From contig CM059430.1 of NCBI GenBank assembly GCA_030390025.1, forward strand, positions 41,540,001-41,604,000: 64,000 nt of DNA. Reading direction: 5' to 3'. Shown here in pieces: positions 34,301 through 57,080 of the stretch. The notes beneath the pieces were generated by a model, which worked only from the letters and a program-made list of their open reading frames with translations, was not told where the DNA came from and ran no database searches. The position numbers and the translations under genes were made by a program. Within the stretch, counting starts at the first letter, position 1, and the number at the start of each line of letters is the position of its first letter. Origin of the DNA: Squalus acanthias. Its lineage: Eukaryota.

Positions 34301-35259
34301 TTTACTGTTTGCCAAGACCAAACCTTGATACAACCTTACAGCTTTCTCTTTGTGTCTCATGAATATTCCTACCTCAGCACAGCACACAGTCAAGGTGCAA
34401 CATACAATAAAAGTCTTGCATCTTCCAAGGGCTTCAGATTGGACACATGGCTGCAATCAGTGACCCCGAATCTTTGGGAAATGCAGCAGTGCGGTGACAT
34501 TGAGCATGTCATGGTATTCAATGGCAAAGGAAGCAAGAGTGCGAGCCGGGCTGACCAATGCATCAGTAACGTTTGTGATTTGTACGTAGCCAGCAAGTAC
34601 CGGATATTGCATTGTTTGGCAGGACTCAGCCATAGGCACAACAACCGAGAGCATGGTTATCTTGCCAACCACTGTGCGATTAAGCTCAGTCCTGTTGATC
34701 TGGAGCAAGCTGAGGCAGTTGCCTTCTCTGTACTTGGCAGGTAGGTGTGCTGATGACTGCAGAATGATCTGGGGCCTGATGATCTCCCTGCCATGCCTGC
34801 TTTCCTCTAATACCATCTCTACCATGGGATGGAAGTGCTTTAAAAGCAAACTTACCCCATTAAAAACTTCAGAAATATGAAAAAAAAGCACTGCACTAAA
34901 ATGTACTGTAAACATTATAAAAAACCCTTCCAAAGAGTTTGAGTACCCATGGGCCTTCGTTTCTGCCTATTCAAAATGGACAAAGGAAAATTAGTAAATC
35001 TGGCACAAATCCCAGTAAACTGTGAGTGATGTTCATTTAAATATTTCTACATCAAATGTGAGGGTTTAAAAAGGCTGGCGCATGAAGTAGGAGCAAGCAC
35101 TTCAGCCCACTAGTATAGAAGAGCTTGGAATTTCAGCTCTGAAAGAAATTGGTGTATGCTCTCCGTGAAAGGTCAACCTATTTATGTTACTACAGCTGGC
35201 AGCCAAGAAGAGAAAATGCAGGCTCTGGACATTGGCAGAGCAATGTTGTATTCTGTGAT

Positions 35260-35329
35260 CATGATGCGGAGATGCCGGTGTTGGACTGGGGAGGTGTGAT
35301 TTCAAATAAAACTGTTGGACTATAACCTG
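35260..35329. mobile_element. Penelope-like mini-element, family B (70 bp, internally inverted)
   Basis: Perfect 12-bp TSD GTATTCTGTGAT (35248-35259, 35330-35341); its two arms match opposite strands of 46626-46735. Confidence 0.8.
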
Positions 35330-37340
35330 GTATTCTGTGATAGCATCGAAGGATTCTACCCAGTCAGGTCTTCCTAACTGTGGTATAGTAACCTATATTA
35401 CATTAAGGAAACCTGTAGGCAAATGAGAACAGCAGATTAGTCCCCCTCGTGTGCGGATTGTGATTCTCTGTCTGAGCTCCCTCCATATATTTATATCATA
35501 TCTTTCTCCTTGTTTGGATATGCTACACCAGACAGCTCAAATGAGGAAAATTGTGGAATTCTTTAAAGAATTTTTCATTTCAGTTAGTTAGCAATCATAC
35601 TCAGCATAGTTTATGTATCTATCACATTTCTATTACACTGTGGCAAAAAGCCAGGCAACCATATCACCCTGAGTTTGAGTAAAGCCGTATTGGCTATATG
35701 CTGAAAAAAATAGTTGCCTGATAGCCAAGTAGCTTAAACCAGGCTTGTAATCTACACCAGATCTTATTGTTAGTAGATGCTGAGGTTCATATCAGCTTGT
35801 GTGTTCTGTGTTGTTACCAATTTACATTTTATCACTCGTCTTTGGTTGAAATAAACCCAGAGTTCTGGAAAGGGTAAGTATACTATGTAAAGTTATATCC
35901 TGAGTTATGCCATTCAATTGCAAAATCTATTTTTCATTTTTCGTCAATTTTAGGTTTCCAATGCAGCTTTCATATACTCAGATGTTCCCATCCTACCTTT
36001 GGGAAGTACCACACATTCTCTGGCTGACTCACTGTACAGGGAATCACAATGTAAACGTACATCTTACCAGTCCATACTGCAGTACAAAACCTTAACAAGT
36101 TTCATTCCTGGCCTGCCGGACACAAGTGTAACTTTGATATCATCAGCGAGCGACGCAACCGCTAAAACTGAGTGATAAAAAGACAGGGTGCATCTCAAAG
36201 TATTTCAATATTATTCGAGCAATCATTATTCCAGGACAGGCTGCTGCAGCACACTGCATAACCTCACACAATCTAGGCTTGTAGATTAGTTGGCCCAAAC
36301 AATAACACGGTTTTCAGAACGAAAAAGTTGATATTGTATAATACTCTATTTATATGCAACAGATCTGCCGTAATGATCTGCTGGGACCAGTCATCTGAAC
36401 GTGCTTCAAATTGAGTCCTGGGTCAACAAAGTTGTAAATTCTTGCCTCAGTTCAGATGGAAGTCAGTTGCATGCCACCCAATCAGCATTAAAATGCCACA
36501 GAACAATTTTAAGAGACTGAATATCCATTCTGTGAGTGGGGTTATTTCAATTAAATGGACCATCTTTCTATATTAAAAATTTAAGGAGCTCGAACTTCCA
36601 CAACAGAGTGATCTGGTTCTAAATCCAGCTTGGTGCAATACTTTTATTCCGTGTCAAGCTGAACACTGGTAAACGTAACTCACCATGAGCCCAAAGACGA
36701 ATGTTTTTTTTCCAAGGGCAGTCTGAATGCAGAATAAGTCTGCACAGCTGTTTGCTAATAACCATTGTTTCATGTCAGAACCACTTTTTATTCTTTGGCA
36801 AACTGTCTGACTGAATTGCAAATTTCAACCATCAATCACAGGGCTTTGTATAAATCCCTCTTAAACAAACTTCTCAACTCCTTCTTTTATCCTGAGACTT
36901 TACAGTGGATAATATGGGAAAATCTGCAGAAAGATGCTGCTGGAGCGCTTCAAGGAACTGGAGAAGAAAATCCAGAATTATTTTTCATCAGTGAGATTCT
37001 AAAAAGGAACTTTATACTTAATCCAAGTGTCAAAGAATGAATTTTAAGCAAACAGAATTTATGCTGCTGAGCTACATTATCATTTATTTTAAATTATTAC
37101 AACAGAATTTTCTTCTTGGAAAAAATGAGCACATCTTAAAAGCGTATGAGGGGAAATTCTGCAATCGCACGAACCCAGCAGGGCAACCATGCTCGCAGAA
37201 AGTGCAGGCCAAGGATAGGGTTGCAACATTGTAGCTCCCAATTCTCTGACCCAACACCCCGGGAGTCTGGAATTGCGGAATTGTTGCAAGAAATAGTATA
37301 CTGCTAACAGAAATCAATAGCACAATCAACAGAATGACAG

Positions 37341-37425
37341 CAGTTTTGACAAAGGATCCACAACCTGAAACGTTAATTCATCTGCCTGACCTGTTGAGTG
37401 GTTCCAGAATGTTCTGTTTTTGGAA
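37341..37425 (+). mobile_element. Degenerate family A Penelope-like fragment with eroded hammerhead
   Basis: cagttttgacaaagg...acctgaaacgttaa...tgcctgacctgttgagt...ttctgttttt matches 20992-21030 / 22480-22530, but the CUGANGA core is mutated. Confidence 0.6.
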
Positions 37426-38154
37426 TAACAAAATGACTACTTAAGTTGGAGCTGAGGCCTGTTGCTGAGGAAGAGTAAAGAGAGACTTTCTTTGCAGCCA
37501 ATTGTGTCATACTCAATTCAGGAATCAAATGCTAGCTTAAGGGACCAAGTTTCAATAGTTTCCTCGATGGTAATCTTGAAGATTCAATGTACCCCCAAAA
37601 CTTGTGGGCTGGTATCATGTTGCGGCCCCATCACCTAATGATTGTTACAGGTTTGCAGCATAATGTGGCTCACTCCAGACTCCTATTACAGCAATGTACA
37701 TACACAAAGCAGATCTTCAGGACGAGGGTGCTGGTCAATGTACTGCTTTTTTTGTAAGACGTGTTTGATTGGCATGTGACAGCTATAACAGTCCAACCTA
37801 CGCTGGACTGTTTGGCAAGTAAAGTGGATGGGGAGAAGTCAGGTGTGCTGGATGGGCTGCTCTCTGTCTCTCTTTGGGTAACCATGCATAGACACTGACT
37901 TAGGGAATGCTATTGTGCAACCATCATGTTTCTCAGCTTGGATCTTCTCCAGCATTGGCAAGGTTTCGACATCAACATCAACTGGAGAGATATCTATCAA
38001 TCTTAAGGACAAGGAATCCTGTTCTGCTTGAATAGTGATGTGATCTGCAAATGTATCTAAGTGCACAGCACTAACCCTTAGCCATTTTAATAGGCAACAG
38101 AGTTTTAACGCACAGCAATAAGAGCCCTGAAACTTAAAATCAATCACTCTATTT

Positions 38155-38265
38155 GGGCCAGGGTTTTCTGCTTGTGTGCTCATCAGCCTTCAATTTTGCC
38201 CACTTTCATTTTAGTCGAGAGAAAATTCATTGGCTGGTGAGCGTGCAAGTGGAAAACCCTGGCTT
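38155..38265. mobile_element. Small palindromic MITE
   Basis: Perfect 12-bp inverted repeat GCCAGGGTTTTC (38157-38168) / GAAAACCCTGGC (38252-38263). Confidence 0.55.
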
Positions 38266-40371
38266 TGATGTTGAAAAATAAAAGAATAACTAACGTATGA
38301 CTTTCAGATTTGCACATGTAAGGAGGAGCAGGAATTCAATGAGGATGAGAGACACTCTATGAAAAAGCTAATGTCGGGCAGTGGTTCGCACCTTAATGTG
38401 AAAATATTATTCTAACCCTGCAACATGGAGGGAAACAGCATTAACTTGAGGGCTCATCTATTGGCCGCACATATTGGGAAATTGGACCAAGGTGCGCTCA
38501 CAATCTCTCAACTGACGGAGGCAGCAGGCAGGGCTCCTTGTCGCAAGCACGAGCGCAGAAAATTACCCCATTCATTTTAACTCAGGCTTGCCACTGATGG
38601 GGAAAATTAGTATTCATCCATTAGCAAGTTGGTAACTACATCCAACAATGCTTGATGCTAACATTGAGTACCAAAAGTGGGAAAAATATTACAATGCCCA
38701 CTTTAGCATCCTTCACCTCGATGAATACAAAATTCCTCAGGGGGCAAAAAAATCCTGAATTGTGCAGCATAGAATTATTTTCCTTTAAAGTACATCAAAT
38801 TTAATCATAGGCAAATTTACATTTTGTCATATAATAGCATAAAATCTGTATAATTCAAATATTATTACATTGGTCTCAGAGCCAATTATATTTTACAAGT
38901 AAAGATAATTAAAATAACTTGGAAAGTTTCCAAATACAAGTAAAGTAGATGCTGCCATTCTACTTTAATAATTCAATTATTCGTACACTCTGTAATGCAT
39001 TAGTCTTAACAAGAAATACTCCACTGAGGCAGATTTTTCCAAGTTCATTCCAACCCTGTTACTGGTTAATGTTTGCACAACTGTAACTAAGCATTACAAA
39101 CCAGTTGTTCAATCTATATAAATTTGAGAAACACATATTGTCGAGCAATGACTCATACATCAGTCTATTATATGCTACAGGGCTGACTATATTAAAACAA
39201 ATCACTTTGCCTGCAGCTGAAGAATAGAAGCAATATACAGATCAGAGGTTATTGTCTAATTTAAATCTTGGCTGTTTTCCCAGTACCAGACTCCACTTTG
39301 TGCCCATGCTGCTTGCTTTTACTGCCAGTGATGCTCTGCCTGTGCTGAAACTGCTTTGGGTGTTTTCCAAAAATATGTCTACAAAATGCCAATCAACAAG
39401 TTGCTAAAGATTAACAATATGACTGTAGCAAATTAATTTGAACCACTGAAACATCTGTCCTATATGTTTGCTCTAAAAACCCTATACACCTGTTTCTCAA
39501 TTGCTTCGATCTGTCAGTCAATGTTGATTCAGCTTGCTAGTTTAATGTAAATACATTTAGGTAAGTGCTGGAAGTGTGCTTATCCACATTGCAATATAGT
39601 TTTTACTGCATTAGCCATTAGACAAACCTTTAGCGACTGGGTTGGCTGCAGTATTTATTGCCTCTGCTGTGCTACATGATTACAGAGACTTTAAAAGATC
39701 TAAGAATCAGCCGTAGGTCCCTCTAAGGTCGCAATCGTGAAAGCGTCCTGACACTATCAAAGATGAAACCACTATGAAATAGGTCACGGTCTAGGACTAC
39801 TTGACTAGTGGGTTGTTTTAAACTGTAGTGAGAATAACCAATTACAAATTTGATTTTGTAGCACTTGGACAAAAAAAAACTATTCTTAAATCCTCTGAAG
39901 ATGACTGAATGTTGTTCCAAGATATGATGGCTTCTTTTTCCAGTGGTAGAATGTGATCCAGTCATGCACTGTGAATAGATATCATGCATGATGTCAAGCA
40001 CCAAAGAAATAACCAAGCACCATGCTACTAAATCCTTTGGATTTTCTGTGGATCTTTAATATCACTACTAGGATTACATCTTTTATATGGTTATGAAGTA
40101 TGAAGTTCCATCAGTTACCTTGATCCTTTGCACTGATATTCAAGTGTCTAAACAACTAAGTGAAGAAGACATAAGTGTTGTTTTAAAACCAGAGTTGTAC
40201 CATTTTGACTGATTTTTATAGGAAGAATGCTTTGAGCACAAACTTGACAGTGATGAATGAAGCCGTGATGCTATGTCAGAGTTCCTATCACACTTTCAAT
40301 AACCTGGGCTGAATGCCCACCATGTCTCTCTCGTACTGAGATTTTCTTCATTCATCTTCATTAGGCAGACA

Positions 40372-42075
40372 TTTGACCTGGCTGGTAACATCCTTATCAG
40401 GTTTGGGCCAACAGGGAACTCTTCCTCCTCCTAACAATGTTTTTGGTCTCACTGATGGGATCAGTGCGATTTTATACTACAGCCCAAAAAGTCAATCTTG
40501 CACAGGAAAATTAATAACAACATAATCCACTAGAACAGTCAAAGGCTCCATGTCCTAGCGGCAAAGCAAGAACAGTTTATATATAAAAAACTGATTCCTG
40601 CTTTAACAAAAATCACAACGCAATATAGATTATATACCATTTGGAGATGAACAATTTAATTGGTTTGTTTTAGTACTTCTTAAAAACCATGCTGCTGCAC
40701 AGAATTGAAGTGTTATGTCCTCCAGTGCGTGGCCTATTAAAGGGACATTGTTGTCCCACCGGGAAGGGTGAAAAGGTGAGTAATTATAGTAACAGCTTAG
40801 AACAGCTTAAACAGTTACCAACAGGGATGGAAGCATCCAAGTAAACCCTGTGGATCTCCAAAATGATTTCAATAATGGTATTCTTGAACAGTAAACAGTG
40901 ACCATAGTCTACTGCTATCCTGCGGACTGTAAATAGTCCTTTAAAGATTCCACTTGATAACTGGCATCATAAAATGCTACAGTATCATTACTATACTAGC
41001 TTATTGATAACAGTAAATTCTTTAAGTGTACTGTAGGACAACATAGGTGACAAATGTTGTTCATATTTGCTGATACTTCACCAGAATAAATCTATATTTA
41101 GGCTCGAAGAGAGTGTATATTAGATTACATTTAATTTTGTTTTTGTTTTGTCTGCAGAATTGAGCAGCTTTCATGTCTAATCCACAAATTAAATCGAAAT
41201 AATACATGGAACATGATAAGAATTTTAGCGAATAAAGATGTAAGTTATAGGTAGATTTACAATAATTAGAATTTAATGCAAACTAAGAGGTCCTCCAGAA
41301 TCGCAGTGCGATAGTGAAAAGACTGACAGTTGAGCCACATGTAAAATTATTTACTGTTCTTAAAGCCTCAAATAATAATTATACAAGTCTTAAAAGTTAA
41401 ATATTTAAGAAGTGCCAATAACAATTAACAAAAAGGAAAGGGACAAAATACAGTGCACTGCTTACTTAATGAGTCATCATTCACTAATTTAATCCTCTCT
41501 GAGGTAATTAGGTTTACCAAGATCTCATTTTCCAATATTGGTAGATGAACAATGAAGATTTGCCAGCTCAGATAAAGAGTAGTTCAGAGACAAAGGGATC
41601 ACGGGGATCATTGTTAACTTCAATGGAATGAAAATTGGGCGGGTTCTACAGTACTCAAGATAACAGATGGAACTTCATACTTCACAGTCAGGTTATTGCC
41701 CAAGCGGGGAGGTTGAAAATGACCCCCCACATGTTTTCTTTGTTATCTCTTTTCTCGATGATATTTTACAAGTGGTAGTTTCTGTCAGCAAAAGCACTGC
41801 AAAGGTTCTTGGCAAGGTTAGGTCCATTTGACAGGCCTTTGACCCGGTTAGTCATATCCTTATCAGGATTAGGCCAACAGGGAACACTTCTTCCCATTCA
41901 TTTTTTTTTCGATCTCGTCGATGGGATCAGTGTGATTTGATGCTACCATCCAATGAAGTCAATCTTGCACAGAAAAATTAATAACATAATCCATTGGCTC
42001 CATGTGCTAGTAACAGAGCAAGAACAGTTGATACATAAGTAAATCGTTTTGGCTTTAACTAAAATCAGAAAGCAT
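40372..42075 (+). repeat. Diverged ~250-bp direct duplication (40372-40622 and 41838-42075)
   Basis: Collinear shared blocks: atccttatcagg, ggccaacagggaac, gatgggatcagtg, aagtcaatcttgcacag, aaattaataaca, ggctccatgt, gcaagaacagtt, ctttaac.aaaatca. Confidence 0.85.
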
Positions 42076-42254
42076 TTTATATTAAATTCATTTAGAAAAG
42101 AAAAATAGCAAAGCCATATCAGTTACCAGCATGAACTCTAAAATTGCTCCTGATAGGCAAAGCAATGATTTCCTCTGTGAACAATTTGTACAGTAGCTAC
42201 TTTTTCTTTCTATAAATAGACAAAAAGAGACTTGCACTGTCAAACTTACTTAAT

Positions 42255-43285
42255 AGATTAGCGGGTGACATAAAAGGGATCCAAAAGTCTTTTATAAACA
42301 TATAAATAATAAAGAATTAGTCAAAGGAAGGGTGGGCTAATTAGGGACCAAAAAAGAGATCTTCTTGTGGACACAGAGGGCATGGCTGAGGTACTAAATG
42401 AGTACTTTGCATCTGTCTTCACTAATGTCACAGTAAAGGAGGAAGTGATAGAGAAATTGGATAGGATAAAAATAGATAAAAAGGAGGTACTTAAAGATTG
42501 GCAGCGTTCAAAGTCGAAAAGTCACCTGGCCCGGATGGGGTGCATCCTAGGTTGCTAGGGAAGTAAGGGTGGGGATAGTGTAGGAACAGAGAGAACTGGG
42601 GGGGTGTATGTACACAAATTCGTGAAGGACAAGTTGAGAAGGCTGTTAAAAAAGGATATGGGATCTTGGCTTTATAAACAGGACCATAGAGTACAAAGGC
42701 AAGGAAGTTATGCTAAAACTTCATAAAACACTGGTTAGGCCTCCGCTGGAGTACTGTGTCCAATTCTGAACACCACACTTTAGGAAGGATGTCAGGGGCT
42801 TGGAGAGGGTACAGAGGAGATTTACGAGAATACTACCAGGGATGAGGGATTTCAGTTATGTGGAGAGACGAGAGAAGCTGGGATTGTTCTCCTTAGAGCA
42901 GAGAAGGTTAAGGGGAGATTTAATAGAGGGGTTCAAAATCATCAAGAGTTTTGAGAGAGTAAATAAGGAGAAACTGTTTCTACTGAAGAGTGGGCTGGTA
43001 ACCAGAGGACACAGATTTAAGGTCATTGCCAAAAGAGCCAGAGGTAAGGAGAATTTTTTTTTACGCAGCGATTTATTATGATCTGGAATGCACTGCCTGA
43101 AAGGGTGGTGGAAGCAGATTCAATAGTAACATTCAAAAGGGAATTGGATAAATACTCGAAGGGGAAAATTTGCAGGGCTATAGGGAAAGGGCAGGGGAAT
43201 AGAACTAATTGGATAACTCTTTCAAAGAGCTGGCACAGGAACAATGGGTCAAATGGCCTCCTTCTGTGCTGTGTCATTCTATGAA
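42255..43285 (+). mobile_element. CR1 LINE fragment with internal deletions
   Basis: ORFs MAEVLNEYFASVFT, ERVQRRFTRILPGM and IWNALPERVVEADS. Confidence 0.85.
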
Positions 43286-43484
43286 AGATGGAACTAAGGG
43301 CACAACTTGGTGCTTCACCAATTAAAACAAATTACCAATGATAGTTGTCATACAAAGAGGATAAAAACAGGACTTGACTGGGTCCTGAAGCTGAATGATG
43401 TCTGATAGAATCACTCTTCTTATTGTTATTGAATTCTTATGTTCTAAACTATAAATAATCCACCAAAATAACCTTTGACTTTTT

Positions 43485-44770: not shown

Positions 44771-46625
44771 ATTGAAGTAAATTGTTAAAAATGGAAGAAA
44801 CCTTTACCAAAAATGATTTTTGATTTTCAGAATTAAAGTGTGTCACATTGCAAATAATCCAACAGAGAAAATCATAAGTGGCATCATCAATACCAGTATT
44901 GTAAGCCTGCAGAGATATTTAAAGAGCCCTGCCTTTCAAAAATAATAGGTTTCTGCTTTGCTCACTTCAGTCAAGTGTTGCAAAGCAAGGGATGCTGTGC
45001 ATCAAAGCCAGCTTGTAACATGGCACTGTCTCAACGCCAGGGCAGTTCCATTCCTTCTGGCAATGCATGCTGGAGGATTATGACTACATGCCCTGCCTGC
45101 TTGGATTATAGAGCTACGCCACGTTCCACAGAATTACAGCTCATTAATAAAGCAGACATTGTTCAAATAAAGCAAAAAATTAGAATAATTAATGAATGCA
45201 ATGAACCTTTTCATTTCTGCAGGACCCCTAGGGGCCTTTTCCACCCCCACAGTGCCACTCTAAATTCTCAGGTGCAGGTACTGTAAGCAGAGGCCAGTTT
45301 GAAATTGGTATTTCAGCACTTCTCAGTGTAATAAGATTAGAAACACTTCAGTTTACTGAAAAGATCATTCAAACAATTCAGTAAGAATAGTATTTTTTTA
45401 AATAAAGGCTGACTTAGTCAAATAAATGGTGTGTCTAATTCAGCTACATGCTGGCACATTTAGTGACTGTCTTTCCGCATAATGCAACCAATTGTAACAC
45501 CTGCCGCAGGAAAAATGTGCAAACTAGCGGGTGTCCCGTGGCATTGCTCACCATAAGTCAGACGATATATTTGTGGTCTTACTTGTCTCCGCACTGCAGC
45601 TTCTCTCTTCTTCTGATTGTAGGGGGAGAAATTTCCTCCATGCTCACAATCAGGTGGGATTGTGGCGGAGAATGAGACAATATTCAGGTGACAAAAGCCC
45701 TGCAAGATAGCGGCAGGCCCCAGTGCCAGTAAAGGTCCACGCAAACACCTGAAGGCCCTGGTCTTGGCGCAAGGGCTCCCTCTTTATGGCAGGAATGCTG
45801 CCAGGAGCCCACCGAGCATCACAAATGAGCCCTTCTCCAGGAAAATGGGTCGGGATTGGTGTGTATTTGGAAGGGTGGGCAGACCTGCCCTGCTGGACGA
45901 GGAGAGCCCTGCCCTGTGTCGCTGTTGGTTCTCTCTTCTTTACCTTATTTGGCATTATCTTTTTTTTTAAACTGTTCTGGGAGACTTTTGGGGGGATTTC
46001 TTTGTCTGGGAGGTGGTAGGGGAGGATAGCGAAAGGATAAAGGACAGGAAGGAACAGATGATTGGGGTATTTCGGGCAGGAAGTGGTAGGAGTGAGAGGG
46101 AAAAGGTGAGTGCTGGGTGTTGTTAGGGCTAGAGGAGGGAAGATGACGAGAGCTGGGTTGAGGGAGGCTATCTGCCTGGGACAGGAGTCAGGGTGGGAGC
46201 GGGAACAGCTGGAGTGGGGCCCGAAAAGCAGCAAGGCCCCAGGTGAGCAGACTAGGCAGAAGGCCAGTGGGGCTGGAGAATTTTTTTAAGAAGGTACATA
46301 TACAATTACATTTAAACTTAAAGAAATAGAGAAAATAATTTTAAAAATAAAACTTATCTGCAGGAAAGGGTGGACCTGGGTGACTTACGCCACAGCGCCA
46401 TCAGTGTTGGCAGGCCTGCAATTGTGTGCTGAAAGCTCAAAGCACTTTTAATGACTTCTAGTGTTATAGGGTGCATAAAAGGTCAGTGATCAAGTGAACA
46501 GCAGCAACAACAACAACTTGCATTTATATAGCACCTTTATATAGGGGTGAGACCATGAATGGATTTGAGCACAAGGATCAGAATTTTAAATTTGAGGTTA
46601 TATATGCTGTGCCGATTTGTATTTC

Positions 46626-46735
46626 TTCACTTCACCTGACGAAGGATTTCAAATAAAACTGTTGGACTATAACCTGGTGTTGTGCGACTTCTCACTTTTG
46701 TCCACCCCAGTCCAACACCGGCATCTCCGCATCAT
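46626..46735 (+). mobile_element. Penelope-like mini-element, family B; hammerhead internally deleted
   Basis: ttcacCTGACGAagg^atttcaaataaaactgttggactataacctgg...gcatctccgcatcat; stems II and III are missing relative to 54412-54450. Confidence 0.75.
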
Positions 46736-47086
46736 AGCTACAGGTAAGTGTATCATCAAACTGTAGAGCCTAGAAATTGGTTTGCCCCCAAAAACGGGGG
46801 CAGGGATTGCGATGTGCGATTAACTTGCGCTCGTTTGGAGGAATGCAGGCAGCATGCGAACTTCGTGCTGCCTGCTCATTTCCATGATTATGGCTTTCAG
46901 CCCAGCGTTGAACGCGCCAGTGAATGGCTGAATACTCAGCGGGGGGACCAAGTTTGTGCGAGGTGAGCACCAATTAAAGCTAGCCTGCACTGCTTAAAGG
47001 CAGTCTGCACCTCTTAAAGGGGAGGTGCATTCTGCCTGCAGCAGCTCATTGAACTGGCAAGGATAGACAGTGAAAAACAATTAACG

Positions 47087-47323
47087 ATGGCACAACAGAG
47101 GAGAGAGTATGCACCAAAGTTCTTGGATGCAGCACTGAAGGTCTTGGAGCAGGAGGTGGATAGGAGGAGAGAGGTTTTCTTTCCACAGGCCAGGAGGCCC
47201 TCCAAGCAACAGTGCAAAGTGCAGTGGGAGTACATAGCTACTGTGGTGAATGCCAGCAGTGTAGCCTCAAGGACGTGGACGCAGTGCAGGAAGAAGTTTA
47301 ATGACCTCACACAAGTGGTCAAG
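47087..47323 (+). pseudogene. Harbinger Myb/SANT (MSANTD-type) DNA-binding domain exon
   Basis: MAQQRREYAPKFLDAALKVLEQEVDRRREVFF...WEYIATVVNASSVASRTWTQCRKKFNDLTQVVK; the expected donor reads atcagt instead of gtcagt. Confidence 0.85.
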
Positions 47324-48874
47324 ATCAGTGAATTTATCTTCAAATGCCATATCCCACCATCTGTACCACTAGCCTCAGACACTGCTCAATGCATCACTCA
47401 CCTACAAACAATCTCTACCAATAATGACTCATACCTCACATTCATACCTTCACCTCACTCTCACATACTTACCACTTCTGCAAGCCTCACACCCATATCT
47501 CACAGCTTGCACACACTGAAACCTATTCAACCATGACAGGCACATCACCCAAACACATTGCACCACACTCACTGACAAACTTCTCTCTCTCTTGCAGGAC
47601 AAGGTGGCTTAAAGCCAGCGCCAGCAGTACCTAACCGGCAGGGGACAGGCTCACCTGATAACCTCACCCCCATGGAGGAGATGGTGCTGGCAATTCTTGG
47701 GAGGGGCATCGCTGAGCCCGTGGCCAGCGACGGGGCTTAAAGAATATAAGATGCCGGTATCCTCATACGTAATCCTCCTTCTCACATCCCACTTCGTCCT
47801 CGCCCCACAATCTCTTCTGATTTACAAGCTGCACATGGTGTAAGCGTGCACCTGTTGCTTTTAACCCCCTCCCCTCTCCACAACCCTAACCTTGTGCCTT
47901 TCTCATTTCAGAGACCCAAGAAATCCAACCTGCCCAGCTAATGGTATAAGAAGAGGGAGAGGAGAGTGATGAAGAAGAAAAACCATCAATCGATCAGACA
48001 CTCGCAGCCACCAGCTCAGATAAGAACATAAGAATTAGGAGCAGGAGTAGGCCATACGGCGCCTCGAGCCTGCTCCGCCATTCAGTAAGATTATGGCTGA
48101 TCTTCAACCACAACTCCACTTTCCCGCCCGATCCTCATATCTCTTGATTCACCTAGAGTCCAAACATCTATCTCAGCCTTGAATAAACTCAACGATTCAG
48201 CATCCACAGCCATTTGGGGTAGAGAATTCCAAAGACTCACAACCCTCTGAGTGAAGAAATGCCTCCTCATCTCAGTCTTAACTGGCCGACCCCTTATCCT
48301 GAGACTATGCCCCCAGTTCTAGACTCTCCAGCCAGGGGAACCAACCTCTCAGCATCTACCCTGTCAATCCCCCTCAGAATCTAATATGTTTCAATGAGAT
48401 CAACTCTCAATCTTCTAAACTCCAGAGAGTATAGGCCCAATCTAATCAATCTCTCCTCATTGGACAACCCTCTCATCCCAGGAATCAATCTAGTGAACCT
48501 TGGTTGCACCGCCTCTAAGGCAGGTATATCCTTCCTCAGATAAGGGGACCATAACTGTGCGCAGTACTCTAGGTGTGGTCTCACCAAAGCCCTATACAAT
48601 TGTGCCAAGACTTCCTTATTCTTGTACTCCAACCCCCTTTCAATAAAGGCCAACATGCCATTTGCCTTCCTAATTGCTTGCTGTACCTGCATGCTAACTC
48701 TCTGTGTTTCCTGTATGAGGACATCTAAATCTCTCTGAACACCAACATTTAATAGTTTCTCACCATTTAAAAAATATTCTGTTTTTCTATTCTTCCTACC
48801 AAAGTGAATAACCTCACATTTCCCCACATTATACTCCATCTGCCACCTTATTGCCCACTCACTTAACCTGTCTA

Positions 48875-49206
48875 CAGGAAACTTTCGTTTATCCGGCACC
48901 CAAATATCCGGAATTCTCGCTTAACCGGCAAAAATCAGGTAAGTTTTATTGTACAGACAAGACCCCGATTCTGACCTTTCGCCCCCACGAAAGGGGGGTC
49001 AAAGTTCTTCCGACTCGGACCTGTCACAGCCACGGAGGAAAAAGCCGGAGTCTCGTTTACTTTCCCTCTCCGGGTCCCAATTGTTAAGCCTGTGGCCGTG
49101 TACGGGGCTCTCGTACCTTGGTAAGTATAGCTCTCTGTAATCCGGCACTTTCGATCAACCGGCACCACGCCGGTCCCGTCGGTGCCGGATAAACGAAAGT
49201 TTCCTG
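48875..49206. mobile_element. pogo/Tigger-like MITE (young)
   Basis: Perfect 26-bp TIR CAGGAAACTTTCGTTTATCCGGCACC and TA TSD; removal restores CR1 ctgtcTAtatccctttgca (compare 11441-11460). Confidence 0.92.
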
Positions 49207-49228
49207 TATATCCCTTTGCAGACTCTTT

Positions 49229-50026
49229 GGGCTGGATTTTGTCAATGGGGACGTGATGGAGGCGGGACTCCCACTTTTTGGGTTGTAGTCCCGCCAACCC
49301 ACTGTATTTTCCCTTGATTGACCTTGTTAAGCCCGCCAATCAAGGGTCCCTTGGATACAGGTGACGTCAGCCATTGAAATTTCATCTGTCAAGAGCTTTT
49401 GACAGATGAAATTTCAGCATTTGACAGCTCTGTGAAGCTGTCAAACACTGACAATATGATTTCTAACTTGAGTCCCTGTACTTAGACTGAGTTAGAAATC
49501 AATCCAGCACAGAAAGCAGACTGCAGCTTTTGACAGCTCCGCGGCCATTCTGCTTTCTATGCCGGTGAGCTGAGGGACTCCCGAGAACTGAAGGAAGGAA
49601 GCCTGCAGGACAAAGTTAAGGTAAGTAAAAGTTCTTAAAAAACTTTACACACGTCAAACACACTTACCTCTGCACTCATGCACCCATCACTCACCTGCAC
49701 ACCGGACATCTCGACCCCTCCAAACCGACGGTCCGCCTCGCTAAATCGGTGTGGTTCGGACCTGTCGGGAAGCCCACACTTCAGGGCTAAAAATAGGGAT
49801 TAGGCAAAAAACTGCCTGTTAACTACCTGTTAACAGGCAGTTTATTGGCACTAATCCCCTTCCCGCCTCAGGGAGGCGGGTCCCAGCACAAGTCGGGTAC
49901 CCGCCTCCTGGGAAACTGGCATGGAGGCGGGTTGGGGGCGGGATGGGTTCGGGACCCCCGAATCTGCTATTTTCCCACCCCACATGCCTCCAAACCCGCC
50001 TCCACGGGTCAATGAAAATTGAGCCC
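49229..50026. mobile_element. PIF/Harbinger-type MITE with internal hairpins
   Basis: TIRs GGGCTGGATTTT / AAAATTGAGCCC, 3-bp TSD TTT; removal restores the CR1 sequence. Confidence 0.85.
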
Positions 50027-50460
50027 TTTGTGTTCTCCTCACAGCTTACTATCCCACCTAGCTTTGTGTCGTCAGCAAACTTGGATACATTACACTCAGT
50101 CCCTTCATCTAAGTCATTGATATAAATTGTAAATAGCTGAGGCCCAAGCACTGATCCTTGTGTCACCCCACTAGTTACAGCCTGCCAAACTGAAAATTAC
50201 CCTTTTATCCCTACTCTCTTTTCTGTCTGTTAACCAATCCTCTATCCATGCTAATATATTACTCCCAACCCCATGAACCCTTATCTTGTGTAACAACCTT
50301 TTATGTGGCACCTTATCGAATGCCTTTTGGAAATCCAAATATACTACATTCACTGGTTCCCCTTTATCTACCCTGCTAGTTACATCCTCAAAAAACTCTA
50401 ATAAATGTGTTAAACACGATTTCCTTTTCATACAACCATGTTGACTCTGCCTAATCATTA

Positions 50461-51214
50461 TGGGCCGTAATTTGCGACCCCTTTGGGTGTGTATGAGGTG
50501 CACATGTGCCCGTAGGGGCCGCGCAAGTTCCAGGTTTAGGAATGCGAAGCGCATGTGCTAAAACCCAGAACTTGCGATCTGTCAAGAATCTTCTTGACAG
50601 ATGATCCGCATCCCCGGGAAAAGGGCCTCCGCTGGCAGAGAGTTGCGCTATTTGCCCAACTTCTGCCCAGCGAACGCCCGTGAAATTCTTACGCCTGGTA
50701 AAAGCAGGCATAAGGCCTGCTTTTACCAGTGTATGAGTTTTAATAAATAGAAAAATAAAATGTTATCACTCATTTAAATATTAAAAACCCTGTCCAATAA
50801 GGTACATTTATTTTTAGCCCCGTTTAAGCATATTTTAAAAAATTTCAAAAAATTAATTTTTGTTAAAAATATTTAATTAAATGGCATTTTAATTAATTTT
50901 AAATATGTAATTTTTAAAAAACTTATTTCATGTGTTCGTGTATTTTTTAAGTGATCTCCATTCATACTTGCAGAATCCCCATAAGTATGAAGGGGGATTC
51001 CCCTTCTTTCATTGGTTGGGCCGGCCCACGTGATCCCAGGGGCACCTGCAAACCGCCTGTGCCCCTGGGATACGTGGGCCTCTACCCGTGGGTACCCGGA
51101 GAGGCCCAGGAGCGCGAGTCTCCAGACCTCCCGGACCACCAGGTAAATTCGCAGATTTTTTGCAGGTCGGAGGCAACCGCCCGCAGGAAGACCCCGACCG
51201 CAAATTTTGGGCCA
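50461..51214. mobile_element. PIF/Harbinger-type MITE
   Basis: TIRs TGGGCCGTAATTTGCG / CGCAAATTTTGGGCCA, canonical TTA TSD (50458-50460, 51215-51217). Confidence 0.88.
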
Positions 51215-53099
51215 TTATGATTTTCTAAATGCCCTGTTACCACTTCCTTAATAATGGATTCCAGCATTTTCCTGACAACTGATATCAGGTTAACTGGCCT
51301 GTAGTTCCCTGTTTTCTCTCTCTCTCCTTTCTTGAATAGCGGGATTACATTTGCTACCTTCCAATTCTCTGGGACCATTCTAGAATCTAGGGAATTTTGG
51401 AAGAACACAACTAATGCATCCACTATCTCTGCAGCCACCTCTTTTAGAATCCTAGGATGTAGGCCCTCAGGTCCAGGGGATTTGTCAGCTTTCAGTCCCA
51501 TTAGTTTCTCAAGTACTTTTTCTCTACAGATCTTAATTACTTTAAGTTCCTCACTCTCATTAGCCCCTTGGTTCCCCACTATTTTAGAAGGTAGCTTAGA
51601 GGTGGGATCTGCACGTGGTGAGTCACCGGGCACGAGTGGGCTGGAGCCGGGGCAGGGGGAAAGGGTACCGAATGTGCCAGCTCTCCGGAGGGCAAGGTTG
51701 CATGCGAGTTCTGCTGCAGAGTACTCAGACGAGGACTTCGATGGGGCAGCCTACAGAGGAACGCTGATGGGTATGCACAATGAAGTGATTGGTGCATTGG
51801 CAGGCCTGCCAGAAAGCCTGAGTGCAATGTCAAGGTGCATGGAGGTGCCCAGCACCAACCTTGCACAGGGCTTTGTGCAGAGCTTGGAGCCCATGATTTC
51901 CAGCGTGGAAGGGGTGGGCAGATCCATTAGCGCACTTGTGGACCCAACCATGATGCAGCATCTGATGTCTCAGCTTCCATTGGAGCATAAGCAGAAGCCA
52001 CCCAATATCTGAGTGCTGCTGTGGAAGCTCAGACTGAAGTCACGCAAGCTCAGACTGGTCTCATGCAAGCTCAGACTGCTGCCAGCATGGAAAGGGGCTT
52101 GCAGCGTGTCACAGCAGTCCAGCAATCTGTCCTCCAACAGATGGCTAGAAATGCTGAGGAGTGGCAGTGGCTCCATGGAGCAAGAACCTGCTGTCCTCTC
52201 TCAGGATGACAGCATTCGTCCTCCCACCACTGCCACTCCGCCAGTGCCCTTGTTGTTGCCTGTCAACCAGCCCAGCCTGCTGCCACCTATGCCGAGGCGG
52301 TGTAGTCCACAGCTGGGCCTTCTAGGCTCAGAGGTGCTCGAGGTCGTCCTGCAAGGCCATCTGCAGTCTCCCCCACTGAAAGTCAGCAGCCTTCCACCAG
52401 CCATGCTGCAGCCACTGGGGTAGCACTTCATAGGAACACTAGGGGTGGTTAGTTGACTTTGTTATGTAATATTGGATGGATTGATGTTTGAAGTTGGATT
52501 GGAATGTTTCTTTTGTGGTGGCTTTTATTTCAGCATTGTGCCCAAGAGGACACTGTGATGGTCAGTAACAGAGGGAAGGAAAGGTGCAGGACTATTGTTG
52601 AATGGGGAATTGGGGTTGCATTCACTGGTACCACAGTCAGATGATTTGATCACTGACAGAAAGGGGCTGTCTGAGTTGCCTCCTCCCTTCCACTTCCTCC
52701 TCTTTGGCTTCCTCCTCCTCCTGCTCCTCCTCCTCCTCCTCCTCAGCTGGTTGCCGTATGCCTGGTGGCAAGGTCGGTTTCCTCATAATAGCGAGGTTGG
52801 GGAGCATATAGCAGACCACGACGAATTCTGGGACACGTTCTGGTGAGTACTGCGGGGCTCCTCCAGAGCGGTCCAGGCAGCGGAAGCATTGTTTAAGGAC
52901 GCCAATGGTCTGCTTGATCAGATTCCGTGTGGCAGCATGACTCTCATTGTATGCATGCTGCCCACGTGTGGTTGGGTTGCGGAGCAGAGTCATGAGCCAG
53001 GTGGGTCAACGGATAGCGTTTGTCGCCCAGTAGCCACCCTCTGGTTTGTTGTGGTGGCTCAAAGACTGAGGTAACAGCGGACTGGCGCAGAATAAAGTG

Positions 53100-53558
53100 A
53101 TCGGACACCCCCCCCCCACCGACCCTTCCGATCTCCTTCACGAGGCCTCCGATCTCACCTCCCACCCACCGATCCTTCCGATCTCCCCGCTGCTCTGACC
53201 CCCGAGCTTCCTTGTGGCCTCCAGACTTCGCTCACCCCCTGCTCTCTGATGTTGCCTGGCTCAGGACTCCGATCTTACCCCCCAGCTCCAGCCTCCTCGA
53301 CATCCCCCGGCTCAGGACTCCGATTATCCTCCCCCCCCTCCCCCCACCCCAGCCTCCTGATCCCTCCCTCTCTCCTCTCTGCTCCTTGTGCCGAAGGCCT
53401 ACCCCCCCCGACAGCCAGCCAGCCTCTCAATCTGGCAGGTAAACGGAGACAAAAATTTTAGTCAGGTCCTGTCTTTAAATTCTTCCGGGTTTCCCAACCT
53501 CAATCCAGCGCCCCCCCCACCAACGCTCCCTCCCCACTTCAGAGTTAATATCCAGCCC
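53100..53558. mobile_element. Harbinger-MITE right arm with C-rich short tandem motifs
   Basis: Ends aatatccagccc (reverse complement GGGCTGGATATT, like the 49229 TIR); repeated ccttccgatctcc and ggctcaggactccgat. Confidence 0.5.
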
Positions 53559-53620
53559 TCCATTTCCAGATTATCTTTCAATGAAACATGCGGCCCACAT
53601 ATAAGATACCTAAAGATTTT

Positions 53621-53855
53621 ACATAAGAACATAAGAAATAGGAGCAGGAATAGGCCACTTGGCCCCTCGAGCCTGCTCCGCCATTCAATAAGATCATGGC
53701 TGATCTTGGGCTCAAAGCCACTTCCCCGCCCGCTCCCCATAACCCTTCACTCCCTTATCTTGCAAAAGTCTGTCTATCTCCACCTTAAATGTATTTAATG
53801 ACCCAGCCTCCACAGCTCTCTGGGGCAGAGAATTCCACAAATTTACGACCCTCTG
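53621..53855 (-). mobile_element. CR1 3' UTR fragment
   Basis: acataagaacataagaa tail; reverse complement of 29280-29510. Confidence 0.88.
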
Positions 53856-54323
53856 TTACATGTTAGCTTACACTTTCATTTAGTTTTTCTGACGGAGAAA
53901 AATGAAGACTGCTCTTCAAAACAGTACCAGGTATTTCTTGGGAATCTCATGAGATTTCAGTGGTCACATGACCAAACCTTTGATAAATACTTGTCAGTTG
54001 GTACAATGTACATCAATGATCATCTACACAGTGCCAAGAGTTTCATTCAAAAGAAGTAAAGTTTGATCGGGAGTTATGTGACGTAAATGATTTGTTGTGA
54101 CAACAAAAAGGTTACTCTAGAAATCAAATCTGATTTAATTGTATTTGCAAAAGAAATACCTTTATCTACCCGAACCATATTTTCACCTTCTCTCTTTATC
54201 TGCTGTTATATACCCATTTAACACCTTGTAAATTTGTCCTACTTTCCTCATTTGCTTATTCTTTCTTGATTAGACTGATCAGTGTCACAAGGCAAGCTTC
54301 TATCCTTGTTGCAGTATAGGTTT

Positions 54324-54452
54324 TGATGTGGAGATGCCGGCGTTGGACTGGGGTGGACAAAAATGAGAAGTCGCACAACACCAGGTTATAGTCCAACAGA
54401 TTTATTTAATTTTACAAGCTTTCGGAGCGGTTCGCTCCTTCCTCAGGTAAGT
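54324..54452 (-). mobile_element. Penelope-like mini-element, family B, with complete hammerhead motif
   Basis: Reverse complement of 46626-46735 but with the full ribozyme core; may extend to ~54500. Confidence 0.8.
54412..54450 (-). ncRNA. Minimal type I hammerhead ribozyme motif (family B), sense to the TOX3-like pre-mRNA
   Basis: UUAC-CUGAGGA-A-GGAGCG(AAC)CGCUCC-GAA-AGCU-U^GUAA: all core nucleotides, 6-bp stem II, palindromic stem III, stem I UUAC/GUAA; predicted cleavage between 54416 and 54415. Confidence 0.85.
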
Positions 54453-54499
54453 TAGCAGTGAGAGAATCTCCCAGAATTCACAATTTAAACACAGACAAA

Positions 54500-57080
54500 A
54501 TCTATTCAAATCTTGTCCAGGTGGCTGGTTTTAGGTGGCAGATCCCATAAGGATATCGGGGTCGTGGAAGAGGGCAGCACTGCAGAATAGGAGCCTTCAC
54601 TCGACCTGACATTTGCAGACACCAGTTCAGAGACTGACATCCCGCGTAGTTCAGAGGGGAGGCAAGTGGGGGGGGGGGGGGTGGTGGTCGGCACGTGGAC
54701 ATAACCCAGGACGTGGGTGCAGGAGCAAGGGCAGGGGGATAGGATGGCCCAGGAAATAGCTTGCCAGAGGGACAGCTTGCATCCTAGCCCTGCTGCACAG
54801 GGTTCAGATGAAGCTAGCGAGGGCCTACCATACATAAGCAGGTTGATGGCAATCCACAGGGCCTTTCCAAGTGCACTGGGCTGCCTGCCAGCTAGCTTGC
54901 CTACAATATCGGAGATCACAGGGGAGTCCAGCTCCACCTTGTGTGCTATCTTCACGCACGGAATCGAGACCATGCAGTCAACCATGGAGCAGGTGGTCAG
55001 CTCTTTGAGCACTGCAGGAGGATGTACAGTGATGGAGCCTCTAGTGACAGCTCAGACTGCTGCCATCTTGGATCTGGCTTACAATGCCTGAAGGAGAGCG
55101 TGGTTCTGGGCTTGGAGAGCCTCCCAGCACGCCTGCACTCTGTTCTCACACAGAGCAGTGGGATGCTGTGGCTCAGTGCTGGAGGGTGGCATTAGCTCCA
55201 TGAGAGAGGCACATATTATCCTCTCTCAGGATGACAGCAGCTCTGCTCCCCCGCCAGCCTCTCAACCAGTGCCCTTGTTGGTGTCAGACAGCTAGCTGGC
55301 CCGAACTGCCCCAGCTGAATCAGAGTTCCTGCATTCTGCAGCTGGGTCGTCAGCAGCCAGAGCCCCTCGAGGTCCCCCTCCACGGACATCTCAAGTGCCC
55401 GCAGCGGAAGTTTAGCAGCCTTCCACCTCCCAAGCTGTAGGACCTTGTAGCAGCACTAGGAAAGGGCACCAACCATCAAGACAGGTCCCTAGGGCTTTGC
55501 ACAAGGGTGATTTGTAGAAAGGCATCAATCATGTAAGCGTCTGTGAAATCAAGAATGGAGTCTGTTGGAAGTATAAATGTTTTGTTTTGGTTTAGCTGTT
55601 GCTCTTCATAATCTTAGTGATGTGACAGGAACACACAAGTTGTTCAGTTTTGAGGGCATTGATATGGTGGGTGTCAGGACTGGGTCGAATGGAAGGAAGG
55701 AGTGTTGGTGCTCTGGGCAGGGGAAGGATTGTTATGGGGAATCTCTCTTCAATAATTTGCTGCCTTACAGCTCTGGCAGCTCGCTGTACTGCTGCGTGCT
55801 CTTCTTCTGCATCGTAAGGCTCCTCATCTCCATCTTCCTCCTCCACTGGCAGCTCCAAGGCAATTTCCCTTTGTATGACATGACTGTGGGATATGCAGCA
55901 AGCAATGCCAAATCTTAAGACTTGCTCTCGGCTGTATTGAAGGTCTCCTCCCGAGTTGTCCAGACAGCGGAACCGTTGTTTCAGAATGCCAATGCTTTGC
56001 TCAATCAGAACCCTTGTTGCTGCACGGCTCTCATTATATGGCTCCACATCTGTGCCCGGGTTCCTGACCAAGAGTCATGAGCCAGCTGCTGCGGGGTTAG
56101 CCATTGTCCCACAGTATCCAGCCTGCTACCTGATGATCTGGGTGGGACAGAGGGGGTATTGAGGACTGACGCAGTATGAAAGCGTCATGAATACCGCCAG
56201 AAAGCCGGGCGCAGACCTGCATGAATCGCTGCCTGTGGTCACAAACAAGGTGAGCATTGCCCTTCCTGCTCAAAAACAGAGCTGGTTCGTGATGAGGAGC
56301 GAGCAAGGCCGCGTGTGTGCAGTCTATGATGATCGGTTCCTGAATACCCACGTGCTATAATGCCTCCCCCGCCCTTGTCTCCTTTACCTTCTTCCTGCAG
56401 CCTGTGCAGGTCTTTGCTCCCTTCCTTGTTGCTGCTCCTCCTCCTGATTTGAGAGCCTCAATGTTAAGCCCAGCAGCATTCCCAAGTTCAGTAATTCAGA
56501 ACAAGGAAATCCTGTGAAACAGTTTGTGCCCTCCAAATACTCACTTTGTAAAAGTATTAAAACAGAAACAGTAGCCAAGCCAGCCAAAAATTTGCTCAAA
56601 AGCACCCCAGAAGCCTAAAACAGCAAATCAGAGACTTACCTTAATTGAAGTGAAAAGTCGCACAACACCAGGTTATAGTCCAACAGCTTTATTTGAAATC
56701 ACAAGCTATAACCTGGTGTTGTGCGACTTCTCACTTTTGTCCACCCCAGTCCAACACCGGCATCTCCGCATCATTACCTTAATTGAGGGGAGGATCCCTT
56801 GAAATGCCGCTTGTGAAAGCTGCTTGCCAGCTTTACCGTCATGACATGCTGGGTGGGTTAAGCAAGTGACATTTCAGGCGTGCATGGACACCAATTTCAG
56901 AAAAGGGCCCTGATTCAGGCACAGGGCTCTTATTATCATATTTAAATGACGCCTGCACTTGTTGCAGGCAGCCACCTTGGGCGTCTATCAAGCACTCAAA
57001 GCGGCGCACTGCTGAATCTGACTTCGCTGCGCCCATTTTGGACCCCGAAGGTACGCGAGACGCATTGCAATTTCTCCCCC
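54500..57080. mobile_element. PIF/Harbinger relic: Myb-gene 3' exon (+) and frameshifted HARBI1-like DDE transposase (-, ~55760-56351)
   Basis: IIDCTH, LVCDH, GGIHDAFILRQS, GWILWDNG and YNESRAATRVLIEQSIGILKQRFRCLDNSGG motifs; 54590-55460 parallels 47990-48020 / 51590-52440; TIR-like gcaatttctcccc at ~57067-57080. Confidence 0.85.
56649..56773. mobile_element. Penelope-like mini-element, family B (125 bp, internally inverted)
   Basis: Perfect 13-bp TSD TTACCTTAATTGA (56636-56648, 56774-56786); inverted arms agtcgcacaacaccaggttatag / ctataacctggtgttgtgcgact. Confidence 0.88.

What the first reader, a model, noticed from the sequence alone, without database searches (positions are those of the whole stretch)
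35248..56786. Family of 70-130 bp ribozyme-associated mini-retroelements whose junctions fall near the predicted cleavage site
Seen: four copies (35260-35329, 46626-46735, 54324-54452, 56649-56773) share the same terminus (...GCATCTCC(G/A)CATCA). Two have perfect 12-13 bp TSDs and an internal inversion. In the 35260 copy the second arm starts at (t)GTGATTTCAAATAAA, within 1 nt of the predicted cleavage product 5' end. In the 56649 copy the inverted arm stops at AGCTT^GTGATTTC, 3-5 nt from it. Inference: self-cleavage may define the 5' end of the RNA template for these tiny non-coding, retrozyme-like insertions, mobilised in trans by a Penelope RT/GIY-YIG protein that is not encoded in this window.
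Basis: partly seen in the sequence, partly recalled or inferred. Interest (0 to 1): 0.75.

Follow-up and report, generated by a model that had tools for sequence, protein, structure and literature searches.

The report
Penelope stubs ending at capped RNA start
These tiny repeats are truncated, often folded-back end pieces of a protein-coding Penelope-like jumping gene in a shark-type genome, and they mostly run through the ribozyme's predicted cut site and stop about 35 bases further on, likely at the capped start of the element's RNA, so self-cleavage probably does not set their length.

Summary
The four copies and both TSDs are real, but two copies are longer than reported (46599-46734; 54324-54514). 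They are 5'-truncated ends of an autonomous Penelope-like element (892-aa RT/GIY-YIG ORF, Neptune/Nematis-type linker, 336-bp pLTRs) found elsewhere in this genome; one is 100% identical to it over 191 bp. The minimal hammerhead is real (compensatory pairs in stems I and II). The cleavage model fails its own test: 251 of 256 sampled arms that reach the predicted cut cross it. Ends pile up instead 30-45 nt upstream (7-fold rate), at an initiator-like A 30-32 nt below a TATA box. Genome-wide, purine-preceded junctions at that A number 2,934 against 435 one base upstream, and 81 of the first 100 carry a G the element lacks there, as expected from copying an mRNA cap. Best reading: run-off cDNAs primed at the 5' pLTR's ATG-proximal start on capped, uncut sense RNA. 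Against: one subfamily shows no G excess; a small excess at the cut remains (220 vs 60 and 97); no RNA ends could be read. This scan noted the same clustering in other genomes; the TATA/Inr/cap-G link was not among those notes.

The parts
35248..35259 (.). Left TSD (12 bp) of copy 1
   Evidence: identical to 35330-35341
35260..35294 (-). Copy 1 direct arm: last 35 nt of the pLTR ending in the ORF's ATG; subfamily A terminus
35295..35329 (+). Copy 1 inverted arm, from the predicted cut (-1/0) to about 58 nt before the element end (shorter than the usual 33-41); the target resembles the element there (9 of 12 nt)
35330..35341 (.). Right TSD of copy 1
46599..46734 (+). Copy 2: pLTR end from the TATA box (46599-46606) through the initiator-like A (46629) and hammerhead C3 (46636) to the terminus; 22-nt deletion after 46644-46646 (GA microhomology) removes the cut site; no TSD found
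   Evidence: alignment to long copies L151, L068
54324..54514 (-). Copy 3: 191-bp 5'-truncated end of the autonomous subfamily-B element, 100% identical to the 3' pLTR of L032; no TSD of 7 bp or more found
54412..54450 (-). Intact minimal type-I hammerhead in copy 3 (stem I 4 bp, core, stem II, palindromic AGCU); predicted cut between 54416 and 54415
   Evidence: numbering after PMC4209133
56636..56648 (.). Left TSD (13 bp) of copy 4
56649..56707 (-). Copy 4 inverted arm: from the second start site (lacks the ~35-40 nt tail) to 5 nt upstream of the predicted cut
56706..56773 (+). Copy 4 direct arm, joined to the inverted arm by a 2-nt microhomology
56774..56786 (.). Right TSD of copy 4

Best explanation
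The four copies are 5'-truncated, partly inverted ends of an autonomous Penelope-like retroelement, and the family's commonest short size likely arises because its reverse transcriptase primes at the ATG-proximal start site in the 5' pLTR of a capped, uncut sense RNA and runs off the RNA's 5' end about 130 nt later. Shown: the full element (pLTR-ORF-pLTR); direct arms ending at the ATG; inverted arms starting 33-41 nt earlier; TSDs with a 12-bp mode; arms crossing the hammerhead cut; 5' ends piling up at an initiator-like A 30-32 nt below a TATA box, with an extra G in front of it. Inferred: that this A is the Pol II start; that the G copies the m7G cap; that both target strands are nicked about 12 bp apart and each primes a cDNA at one of the two start sites; that the two cDNA 3' ends are joined by microhomology; and that the stubs are dead on arrival.
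For: Autonomous copy L032: 336-bp pLTRs 98.8% alike, 892-aa ORF with RVT_1, GIY-YIG-type motif and CX4CxxC linker. ORF 3' end lies within 1.45 kb upstream in 10 of 95 A-type and 25 of 71 B-type copies; A-type L067 runs on into an ORF 94.6% identical to L032's over 500 aa. Breakpoints in 166 copies and 107 inverted arms: 147 of 152 direct and 104 of 104 inverted arms that reach the cut cross it; 72 of 209 at risk end at C3 0 to -13 (0.030/nt vs 0.004 upstream). An Inr-like A and a TATA-like box keep 27-33 nt spacing across subfamilies while shifting 6 nt together relative to the ribozyme (46 of 47 reference copies have both). Genome-wide purine-preceded junctions: 2,934 at the A vs 435 one base upstream. 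G:A before the junction (first 100 listed, counted by eye): 81:19 at the A vs 54:46 one base upstream (p=7e-5); G is 20 of 100 one base downstream; replicate 18:2 in the GAG subfamilies. All 30 loci read were true junctions, on direct and inverted arms. Where the partner arm cannot supply the base it is G in 14 of 15. TSD of 8 bp or more in 99 of 107 vs 1 of 107 shuffled. Literature: two internal RT starts, both strands nicked and extended, ribozyme not needed in vitro (PMC11167929); TATA plus TCACT initiator in a rotifer pLTR (PMC3846280); untemplated 5' G read as cap copying in L1 (PMC9341517).
Against: Subfamily B's predicted initiator A (C3-13) shows only 70 junctions and no G excess (30 G:40 A); its peak is weaker (0.0115 vs 0.0036/nt, p=0.001) and diffuse. 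In 15 of the 29 G junctions read, the partner arm could supply the G, and many others look like jumps back to CCUGA or UGUGA inside the ribozyme, so the G is inferred from microhomology bias. The peak coincides with the 5' edge of stem I, so RNA structure cannot be separated from a start site by position alone. The peak is broad (C3 -3 to -12) and the rate is already raised inside the ribozyme in subfamily A (0.007/nt). D. virilis Penelope uses a TATA-less internal promoter (PMC2377424). None of the four window copies itself ends at the initiator. The sample comes from the first 46 Mb of one contig and needs an exact 30-nt terminus.
Confidence: 0.7

Rival explanations
1. Hammerhead self-cleavage defines the template's 5' end, and the short copies are a retrozyme-like family moved in trans.
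For: Ribozyme conserved with compensatory changes (97.6% of cells paired; U-A/C-G swap in stem I in 11 of 23 variants). Window copy 1 starts at the cut. Five of 152 direct arms stop within 1 nt. Genome-wide 220 junctions at the cut vs 60 at +3 and 97 at -3.
Against: 251 of 256 arms cross the cut; sampled rate there is not above background (p=0.13-0.22). 24 of the first 100 cut junctions are GAA|GTGA, which stem-I complementarity with the partner arm explains, and the three prefix filters are not equally permissive. Copies are dispersed pieces of an ORF-bearing element, not tandem monomers. In vitro, ribozyme mutants did not change insertion and no RNA reads ended at the cut (PMC11167929).
Confidence: 0.05
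2. The RNA continues upstream, but the reverse transcriptase stalls or dissociates as it leaves the folded (possibly dimeric) hammerhead, so cDNAs end at the 5' edge of stem I; the G comes from microhomology and terminal addition.
For: Peak lies at the stem I edge in both subfamilies; raised rate within the ribozyme in subfamily A; subfamily B lacks the G at its initiator-like A; many junctions use ribozyme-internal microhomologies.
Against: A polymerase should stall on entering a structure from its 3' side, yet arms cross stem I's 3' strand and stem II and end after clearing them (inference). The 6.7-fold drop across one base and the G excess confined to that base fit a physical RNA end. Subfamily B has an equally good ribozyme but a four-fold weaker peak.
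Confidence: 0.17
3. A few source copies, or short non-autonomous masters, themselves begin at the initiator A preceded by G, and the peak is inherited from them.
For: One junction (GCTGTG|ACTT) recurs in 4 of 30 loci; subfamily-specific upstream variants exist, such as a TAC duplication in about a quarter of the listing.
Against: The other junctions differ from each other and have their own TSDs; the peak appears across several stem II variants and the G excess in two N7 subfamily groups; a master would still need an RNA starting there.
Confidence: 0.08

Closest known systems
5'-truncated insertion units of canonical endonuclease-positive Penelope-like elements (pLTR, adjacent inverted 5'-truncated copy, 30-40 bp tail; PMC8557442, PMC3846280), Neptune/Nematis type by the CX2-5CxxC linker
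   Same: Single RT plus C-terminal GIY-YIG ORF, pLTR overlapping the ORF start, inverted copy lacking a 33-41 nt tail, variable TSD, minimal hammerhead and TATA/Inr-like motifs in the pLTR.
   Different: Here about half of sampled direct arms are 146 nt or shorter (87 of 166) with a sharp 5' edge and extra G at an initiator-like A; I found no such description in searches. PMC3846280 proposed self-priming on an antisense template; the extra G on both arm types points to sense RNA.
Poseidon PAc of Anolis (in vitro TPRT, PMC11167929)
   Same: Two internal RT start sites explaining the tail, both strands nicked and extended, ribozyme dispensable for insertion.
   Different: PAc starts lie 111-118 nt inside the ORF and its ribozyme overlaps the ATG; here they lie at the ATG and 33-41 nt before it, 92 nt below the cut, and the protein has the Zn-finger-like linker Poseidon lacks.
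Non-LTR retrozymes (tandem type-I hammerhead repeats; definition as read in bioRxiv 10.64898/2026.07.22.740005)
   Same: Short, non-coding, type-I hammerhead-bearing, related to PLE pLTRs.
   Different: Not tandem, not cut-to-cut units, inverted rather than head-to-tail, and identical to the end of an ORF-bearing element.
Full-length L1 insertions with an untemplated 5' G (PMC9341517); retroviral minus-strand strong-stop DNA (recalled, not from a call)
   Same: cDNA runs to the capped RNA 5' end and records the cap as G; strong-stop DNA is likewise a short copy of the RNA leader.
   Different: Here the run-off copy is only the ~130-nt leader and is integrated as such by target priming.

Membership tests
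EN+ Penelope-like element insertion units | Source element with one ORF: RT plus C-terminal GIY-YIG endonuclease | tested here: met
   892-aa ORF in L032, 892-aa ORF in L031; RVT_1 E=2e-8 (Pfam reported no GIY-YIG family for it); motif VYLIRCSKGCSRAWYIG at 791; many relatives carry PF01541
EN+ Penelope-like element insertion units | pLTR direct repeats reaching the ORF start | tested here: met
   336 bp, 98.8% alike, ending at the ATG
EN+ Penelope-like element insertion units | Adjacent inverted 5'-truncated copy lacking a 30-40 bp tail | tested here: met
   107 of 166 copies; 3' ends -26 to -47, 94 of 109 between -33 and -41
EN+ Penelope-like element insertion units | Variable-length TSD | tested here: met
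   99 of 107 at 8 bp or more, mode 12, control 1 of 107
EN+ Penelope-like element insertion units | Minimal type-I hammerhead in the pLTR | tested here: met
   core invariant or nearly so, stems I and II covary; Rfam models do not detect it
Neptune/Nematis clade | CX2-5CxxC linker before the GIY-YIG | tested here: met
   CHGNLCKTC at 753 (criterion from PMC8557442)
Neptune/Nematis clade | RT phylogeny places it in the clade | not tested
   no named reference PLE proteins were at hand; no tree built
Non-LTR retrozymes | Tandem head-to-tail units each with a complete hammerhead | tested here: not met
   window copies are single or inverted; 1 of 4 has a whole ribozyme; sampled short copies are solo or inverted pairs
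Non-LTR retrozymes | Unit ends set by self-cleavage | tested here: not met
   251 of 256 arms cross the cut
Non-LTR retrozymes | Circular or linear monomer RNAs accumulate; RNA self-cleaves | not testable with these tools
   the one raw-read RNA run laid no reads; contigs cannot show ends

The most novel reading that the evidence does not exclude
Tens of thousands of genomic stubs form a fossil record of the Penelope-like life cycle: the RT primes on capped, uncut sense RNA at either pLTR, so priming at the 5' pLTR integrates strong-stop-like copies of the leader that map the transcription start to one base and keep the cap as G. Both arms of an inverted insertion are separate sense-templated cDNAs, in a minority (9 of 109 pairs differ by common subfamily variants) from two different RNAs, as a dimeric RNP would give; the hammerhead is conserved for something other than setting template ends.
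Probability: 0.55. Interest if true: 0.65.

Novelty: new member of a known kind. Interest (0 to 1): 0.45.

Why it matters
The repeats themselves are ordinary debris of a Penelope-like element. Their statistics bear on open questions about this class: what the conserved hammerhead does, whether the template is sense or antisense, and how inverted pLTRs form. It also offers a single-base prediction of the transcription start and cap copying that CAGE or an in vitro assay can check directly. It explains why shark-type genomes can be littered with roughly 130-bp hammerhead-bearing hairpins (14 insertions in 580 kb sampled, about 90,000 by extrapolation) that annotators could mistake for SINEs or retrozymes.

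Tried and rejected
Rfam scan of the window: no hammerhead family hit at E up to 1; minimal PLE hammerheads lack helix III, so this says little. DNA search with the 60-nt A terminus returned nothing because common words are skipped; exact patterns were used instead. RNA: no holder on record as RNA was listed; the one raw-read run laid 0 reads on two stretches at 88% and 80% likeness (no test); contig runs show only presence of related sequence and were not used as evidence. Monomer folds give stems I and II but z-scores of only -0.9 to -1.7, not used as support. The prediction that subfamily B starts at C3-13 with a cap G failed. The idea that the two arms usually come from different subfamilies was rejected: 86 of 109 pairs have the same stem II, 14 differ privately, 9 by common variants (that set mixes selected loci). 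The 8-kb-spaced inverted repeat at 21464-22464/29908-31173 is not this element. Dropped rows: 16 of 64 candidate reference copies were left out as internally rearranged or marginal and 1 lacked landmarks; 2 of 109 inverted hits with intact termini were left out of the arm counts; 95 of the first 100 listed A matches and about 70 of the first 100 B matches were fetched. Supplementary files of the papers were not opened; those of PMC4209133 and PMC11167929 may list shark motifs or 5'-end data.
Full report
Observation. The four copies are at the stated places and share the terminus. Copies 1 and 4 have perfect 12- and 13-bp TSDs and an inverted arm. Two boundaries need correcting. Copy 2 begins at about 46599, at a TATA box, and has lost 22 nt including the cut site. 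Copy 3 is 191 bp long. Only copy 3 keeps a whole ribozyme. Two 30-nt variants of the terminus occur 20,580 and 5,787 times in the 3.7-Gb genome, reversed controls 0. Fifty-eight evenly spaced 10-kb stretches of contigs C1-C6 held 14 insertions (counted by eye), about one per 40 kb.

What they are. Searching the genome with copy 3 gave 40 scored places at 100% identity; all 30 loci read continue upstream in shared sequence, and 3 run on into an ORF whose ATG is the copies' last bases. L032 is a whole element: 336-bp pLTR, 892-aa ORF, second pLTR 98.8% alike. The protein has an RT domain, a GIY-YIG-type motif with two internal cysteines and a CX4CxxC linker, which PMC8557442 (passages read) gives as the mark of Neptune and Nematis rather than Poseidon; no tree was built. 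Its closest named relatives are shark proteins at 80-94% identity. Copy 3 matches L032's 3' pLTR at 100% over 191 bp, and the ORF has no match in the window. The A-type terminus of copies 1, 2 and 4 also has coding sources: L067 continues into an ORF 94.6% identical over 500 aa, and 10 of 95 A-type copies reach the ORF's 3' end. So the stubs are 5'-truncated ends of the autonomous element. Of 166 copies, 107 have an inverted arm whose 3' end lies 26-47 nt (mostly 33-41) before the terminus, and 99 of those 107 have a TSD of 8 bp or more, mode 12, against 1 of 107 in a shuffle. This is the known inverted-pLTR-plus-tail unit (PMC3846280 and PMC8557442, passages), which PMC11167929 (parts 1-2 of 4 read) traces to two internal RT start sites.

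The ribozyme. Twenty-three recurrent variants keep the core and pair at 97.6% of cells; stem I has a U-A/C-G swap (11 vs 12 variants) and stem II a C-G/U-A swap, while slid controls pair at 22-47% (related sequences, so this is support, not a probability). Helix III is the palindrome AGCU, the dimer-type minimal hammerhead of PMC4209133 (parts 1-2 of 4 read), which places the predicted cut at AGCUU^GUGA, 92 nt from the terminus. Cleavage itself was not testable.

I took 95 A-pattern and 71 B-pattern copies in genome order on contig C1, selected only by the exact last 30 nt, and mapped each arm's 5' end against 47 long copies. Of arms that reach the cut, 147 of 152 direct and 104 of 104 inverted cross it. 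Five stop within 1 nt, a rate of 0.0065/nt against 0.0041 upstream (p=0.22) and not above the flanks (p=0.13). Window copy 4 also crosses it. Genome-wide, three-mismatch junction patterns give 220 at the cut, 60 at +3 and 97 at -3. The filters are not equally permissive, and 24 of the first 100 cut junctions are GAA|GTGA, where the partner arm's copy of stem I supplies the match. A residual excess of roughly 1.5-2-fold is my estimate; it may reflect a minor pool of cleaved RNA or microhomology.

Where the ends really are. Seventy-two of 209 arms at risk end in the 14 nt from C3 upstream (0.030/nt vs 0.004; p=1e-27); the effect is 10-fold in A and 3-fold in B. An initiator-like A sits 7 nt (most A) or 13 nt (B and some A) above C3, with a TATA-like box 27-33 nt further up; the two shift together (the YYANWYY and TATA consensus are recalled). 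PMC3846280 notes TATA plus TCACT in a rotifer pLTR, whereas PMC2377424 (passages) found a TATA-less internal promoter in D. virilis. For the commonest A group, purine-preceded junctions number 2,934 at this A and 435 one base upstream; non-A-preceded junctions one base downstream number 2,370. The preceding base, which the element has as C or T, is G in 81 of the first 100, against 54 of 100 upstream (p=7e-5) and 20 of 100 downstream; a second group gives 18 G to 2 A (listings counted by eye). All 30 loci read were true, varied junctions on direct and inverted arms. Among 33 such junctions read, 18 have a base the partner arm could supply (15 G, 3 A) and 15 do not (14 G, 1 A). An untemplated G at a pyrimidine/purine initiator is the accepted sign of cap copying in L1 (PMC9341517, passages).

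Mechanism. The element's RNA likely starts at that A, crosses the ribozyme uncut, and carries the ATG-proximal start sites twice, once in each pLTR. The endonuclease would nick both strands about 12 bp apart; one nick primes at the ATG, the other 33-41 nt upstream. Priming in the 3' pLTR gives long or randomly truncated arms that include the TATA region (window copies 2 and 3 must come from this route). Priming in the 5' pLTR gives about 130 and 95 nt run-off cDNAs ending at the cap, which are joined by microhomology into the common hairpin stub. Copies 1 and 4 are shorter members that stopped before the RNA end. Arms of one insertion mostly match (86 of 109) but 9 differ by common subfamily variants, which hints at two RNAs per event in a minority. 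Stubs lack the TATA box and the ORF-proximal RNA needed for binding in PAc, so they are probably dead (inference from another clade).

Against. Subfamily B shows no G excess at its predicted start (30 G, 40 A). The peak overlaps the 5' edge of stem I, so a structure-linked stop remains a rival. No RNA 5' ends could be read. The fine sample comes from one contig.

Relation to what is known. Membership in the EN+ PLE insertion-unit class is met on every feature tested; non-LTR retrozyme membership (definition from bioRxiv 10.64898/2026.07.22.740005, part 1 of 5 and passages) fails on tandem arrangement and cut-defined ends. Paper searches showed no report of cap-marked run-off stubs in PLEs; the library lacks most subscription papers and I opened no supplements. 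After forming this reading I found that this scan had noted the same stub type, the clustering at the ribozyme's upstream edge and a mild cut-site preference in other genomes; a search of its notes for TATA, initiator and cap returned none. Interest 0.45.

Noticed in passing
window 8609-10144 (-): 511-aa stop-free frame that reads like a LINE reverse transcriptase; family not scanned.
   Followed up: no
window 21464-22464 and 29908-31173: Long inverted repeat arms (78-92% complementary) about 8 kb apart; not this Penelope-like element.
   Followed up: partly
window 54444-54452 (+): The antisense strand of subfamily B reads CAG|GTAAGT, a perfect 5' splice donor (consensus recalled), across the ribozyme's stem I; such insertions could act as cryptic donors.
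   Followed up: no
window 46644-46647: 22-nt deletion with GA microhomology removes stem II's 3' half and the cut site; could be an RT jump across the hairpin or a later deletion.
   Followed up: partly
L258, L263, L270, L276, L147, L152, L172 (two), L176: The two arms of one insertion carry different common stem II variants, several with indels.
   Followed up: partly
L265, L266, L271, L273, L262, L272, L361: Junctions at the initiator A preceded by TG, matching jumps back to the ribozyme's own core or stem I 3' strand.
   Followed up: partly
L031 (G000:C9:128427500-128437499): Two near-full-length copies back to back in opposite directions, one with an intact 892-aa ORF; the family looks very recently active.
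   Followed up: partly
alignment A2: Stem II loop varies from 3 to 9 nt among subfamilies whose downstream 90 nt are nearly constant.
   Followed up: no
window 38154-38266: Weak hairpin match to mir-1468 (36.7 bits, gathering 95), probably chance or a repeat hairpin.
   Followed up: no
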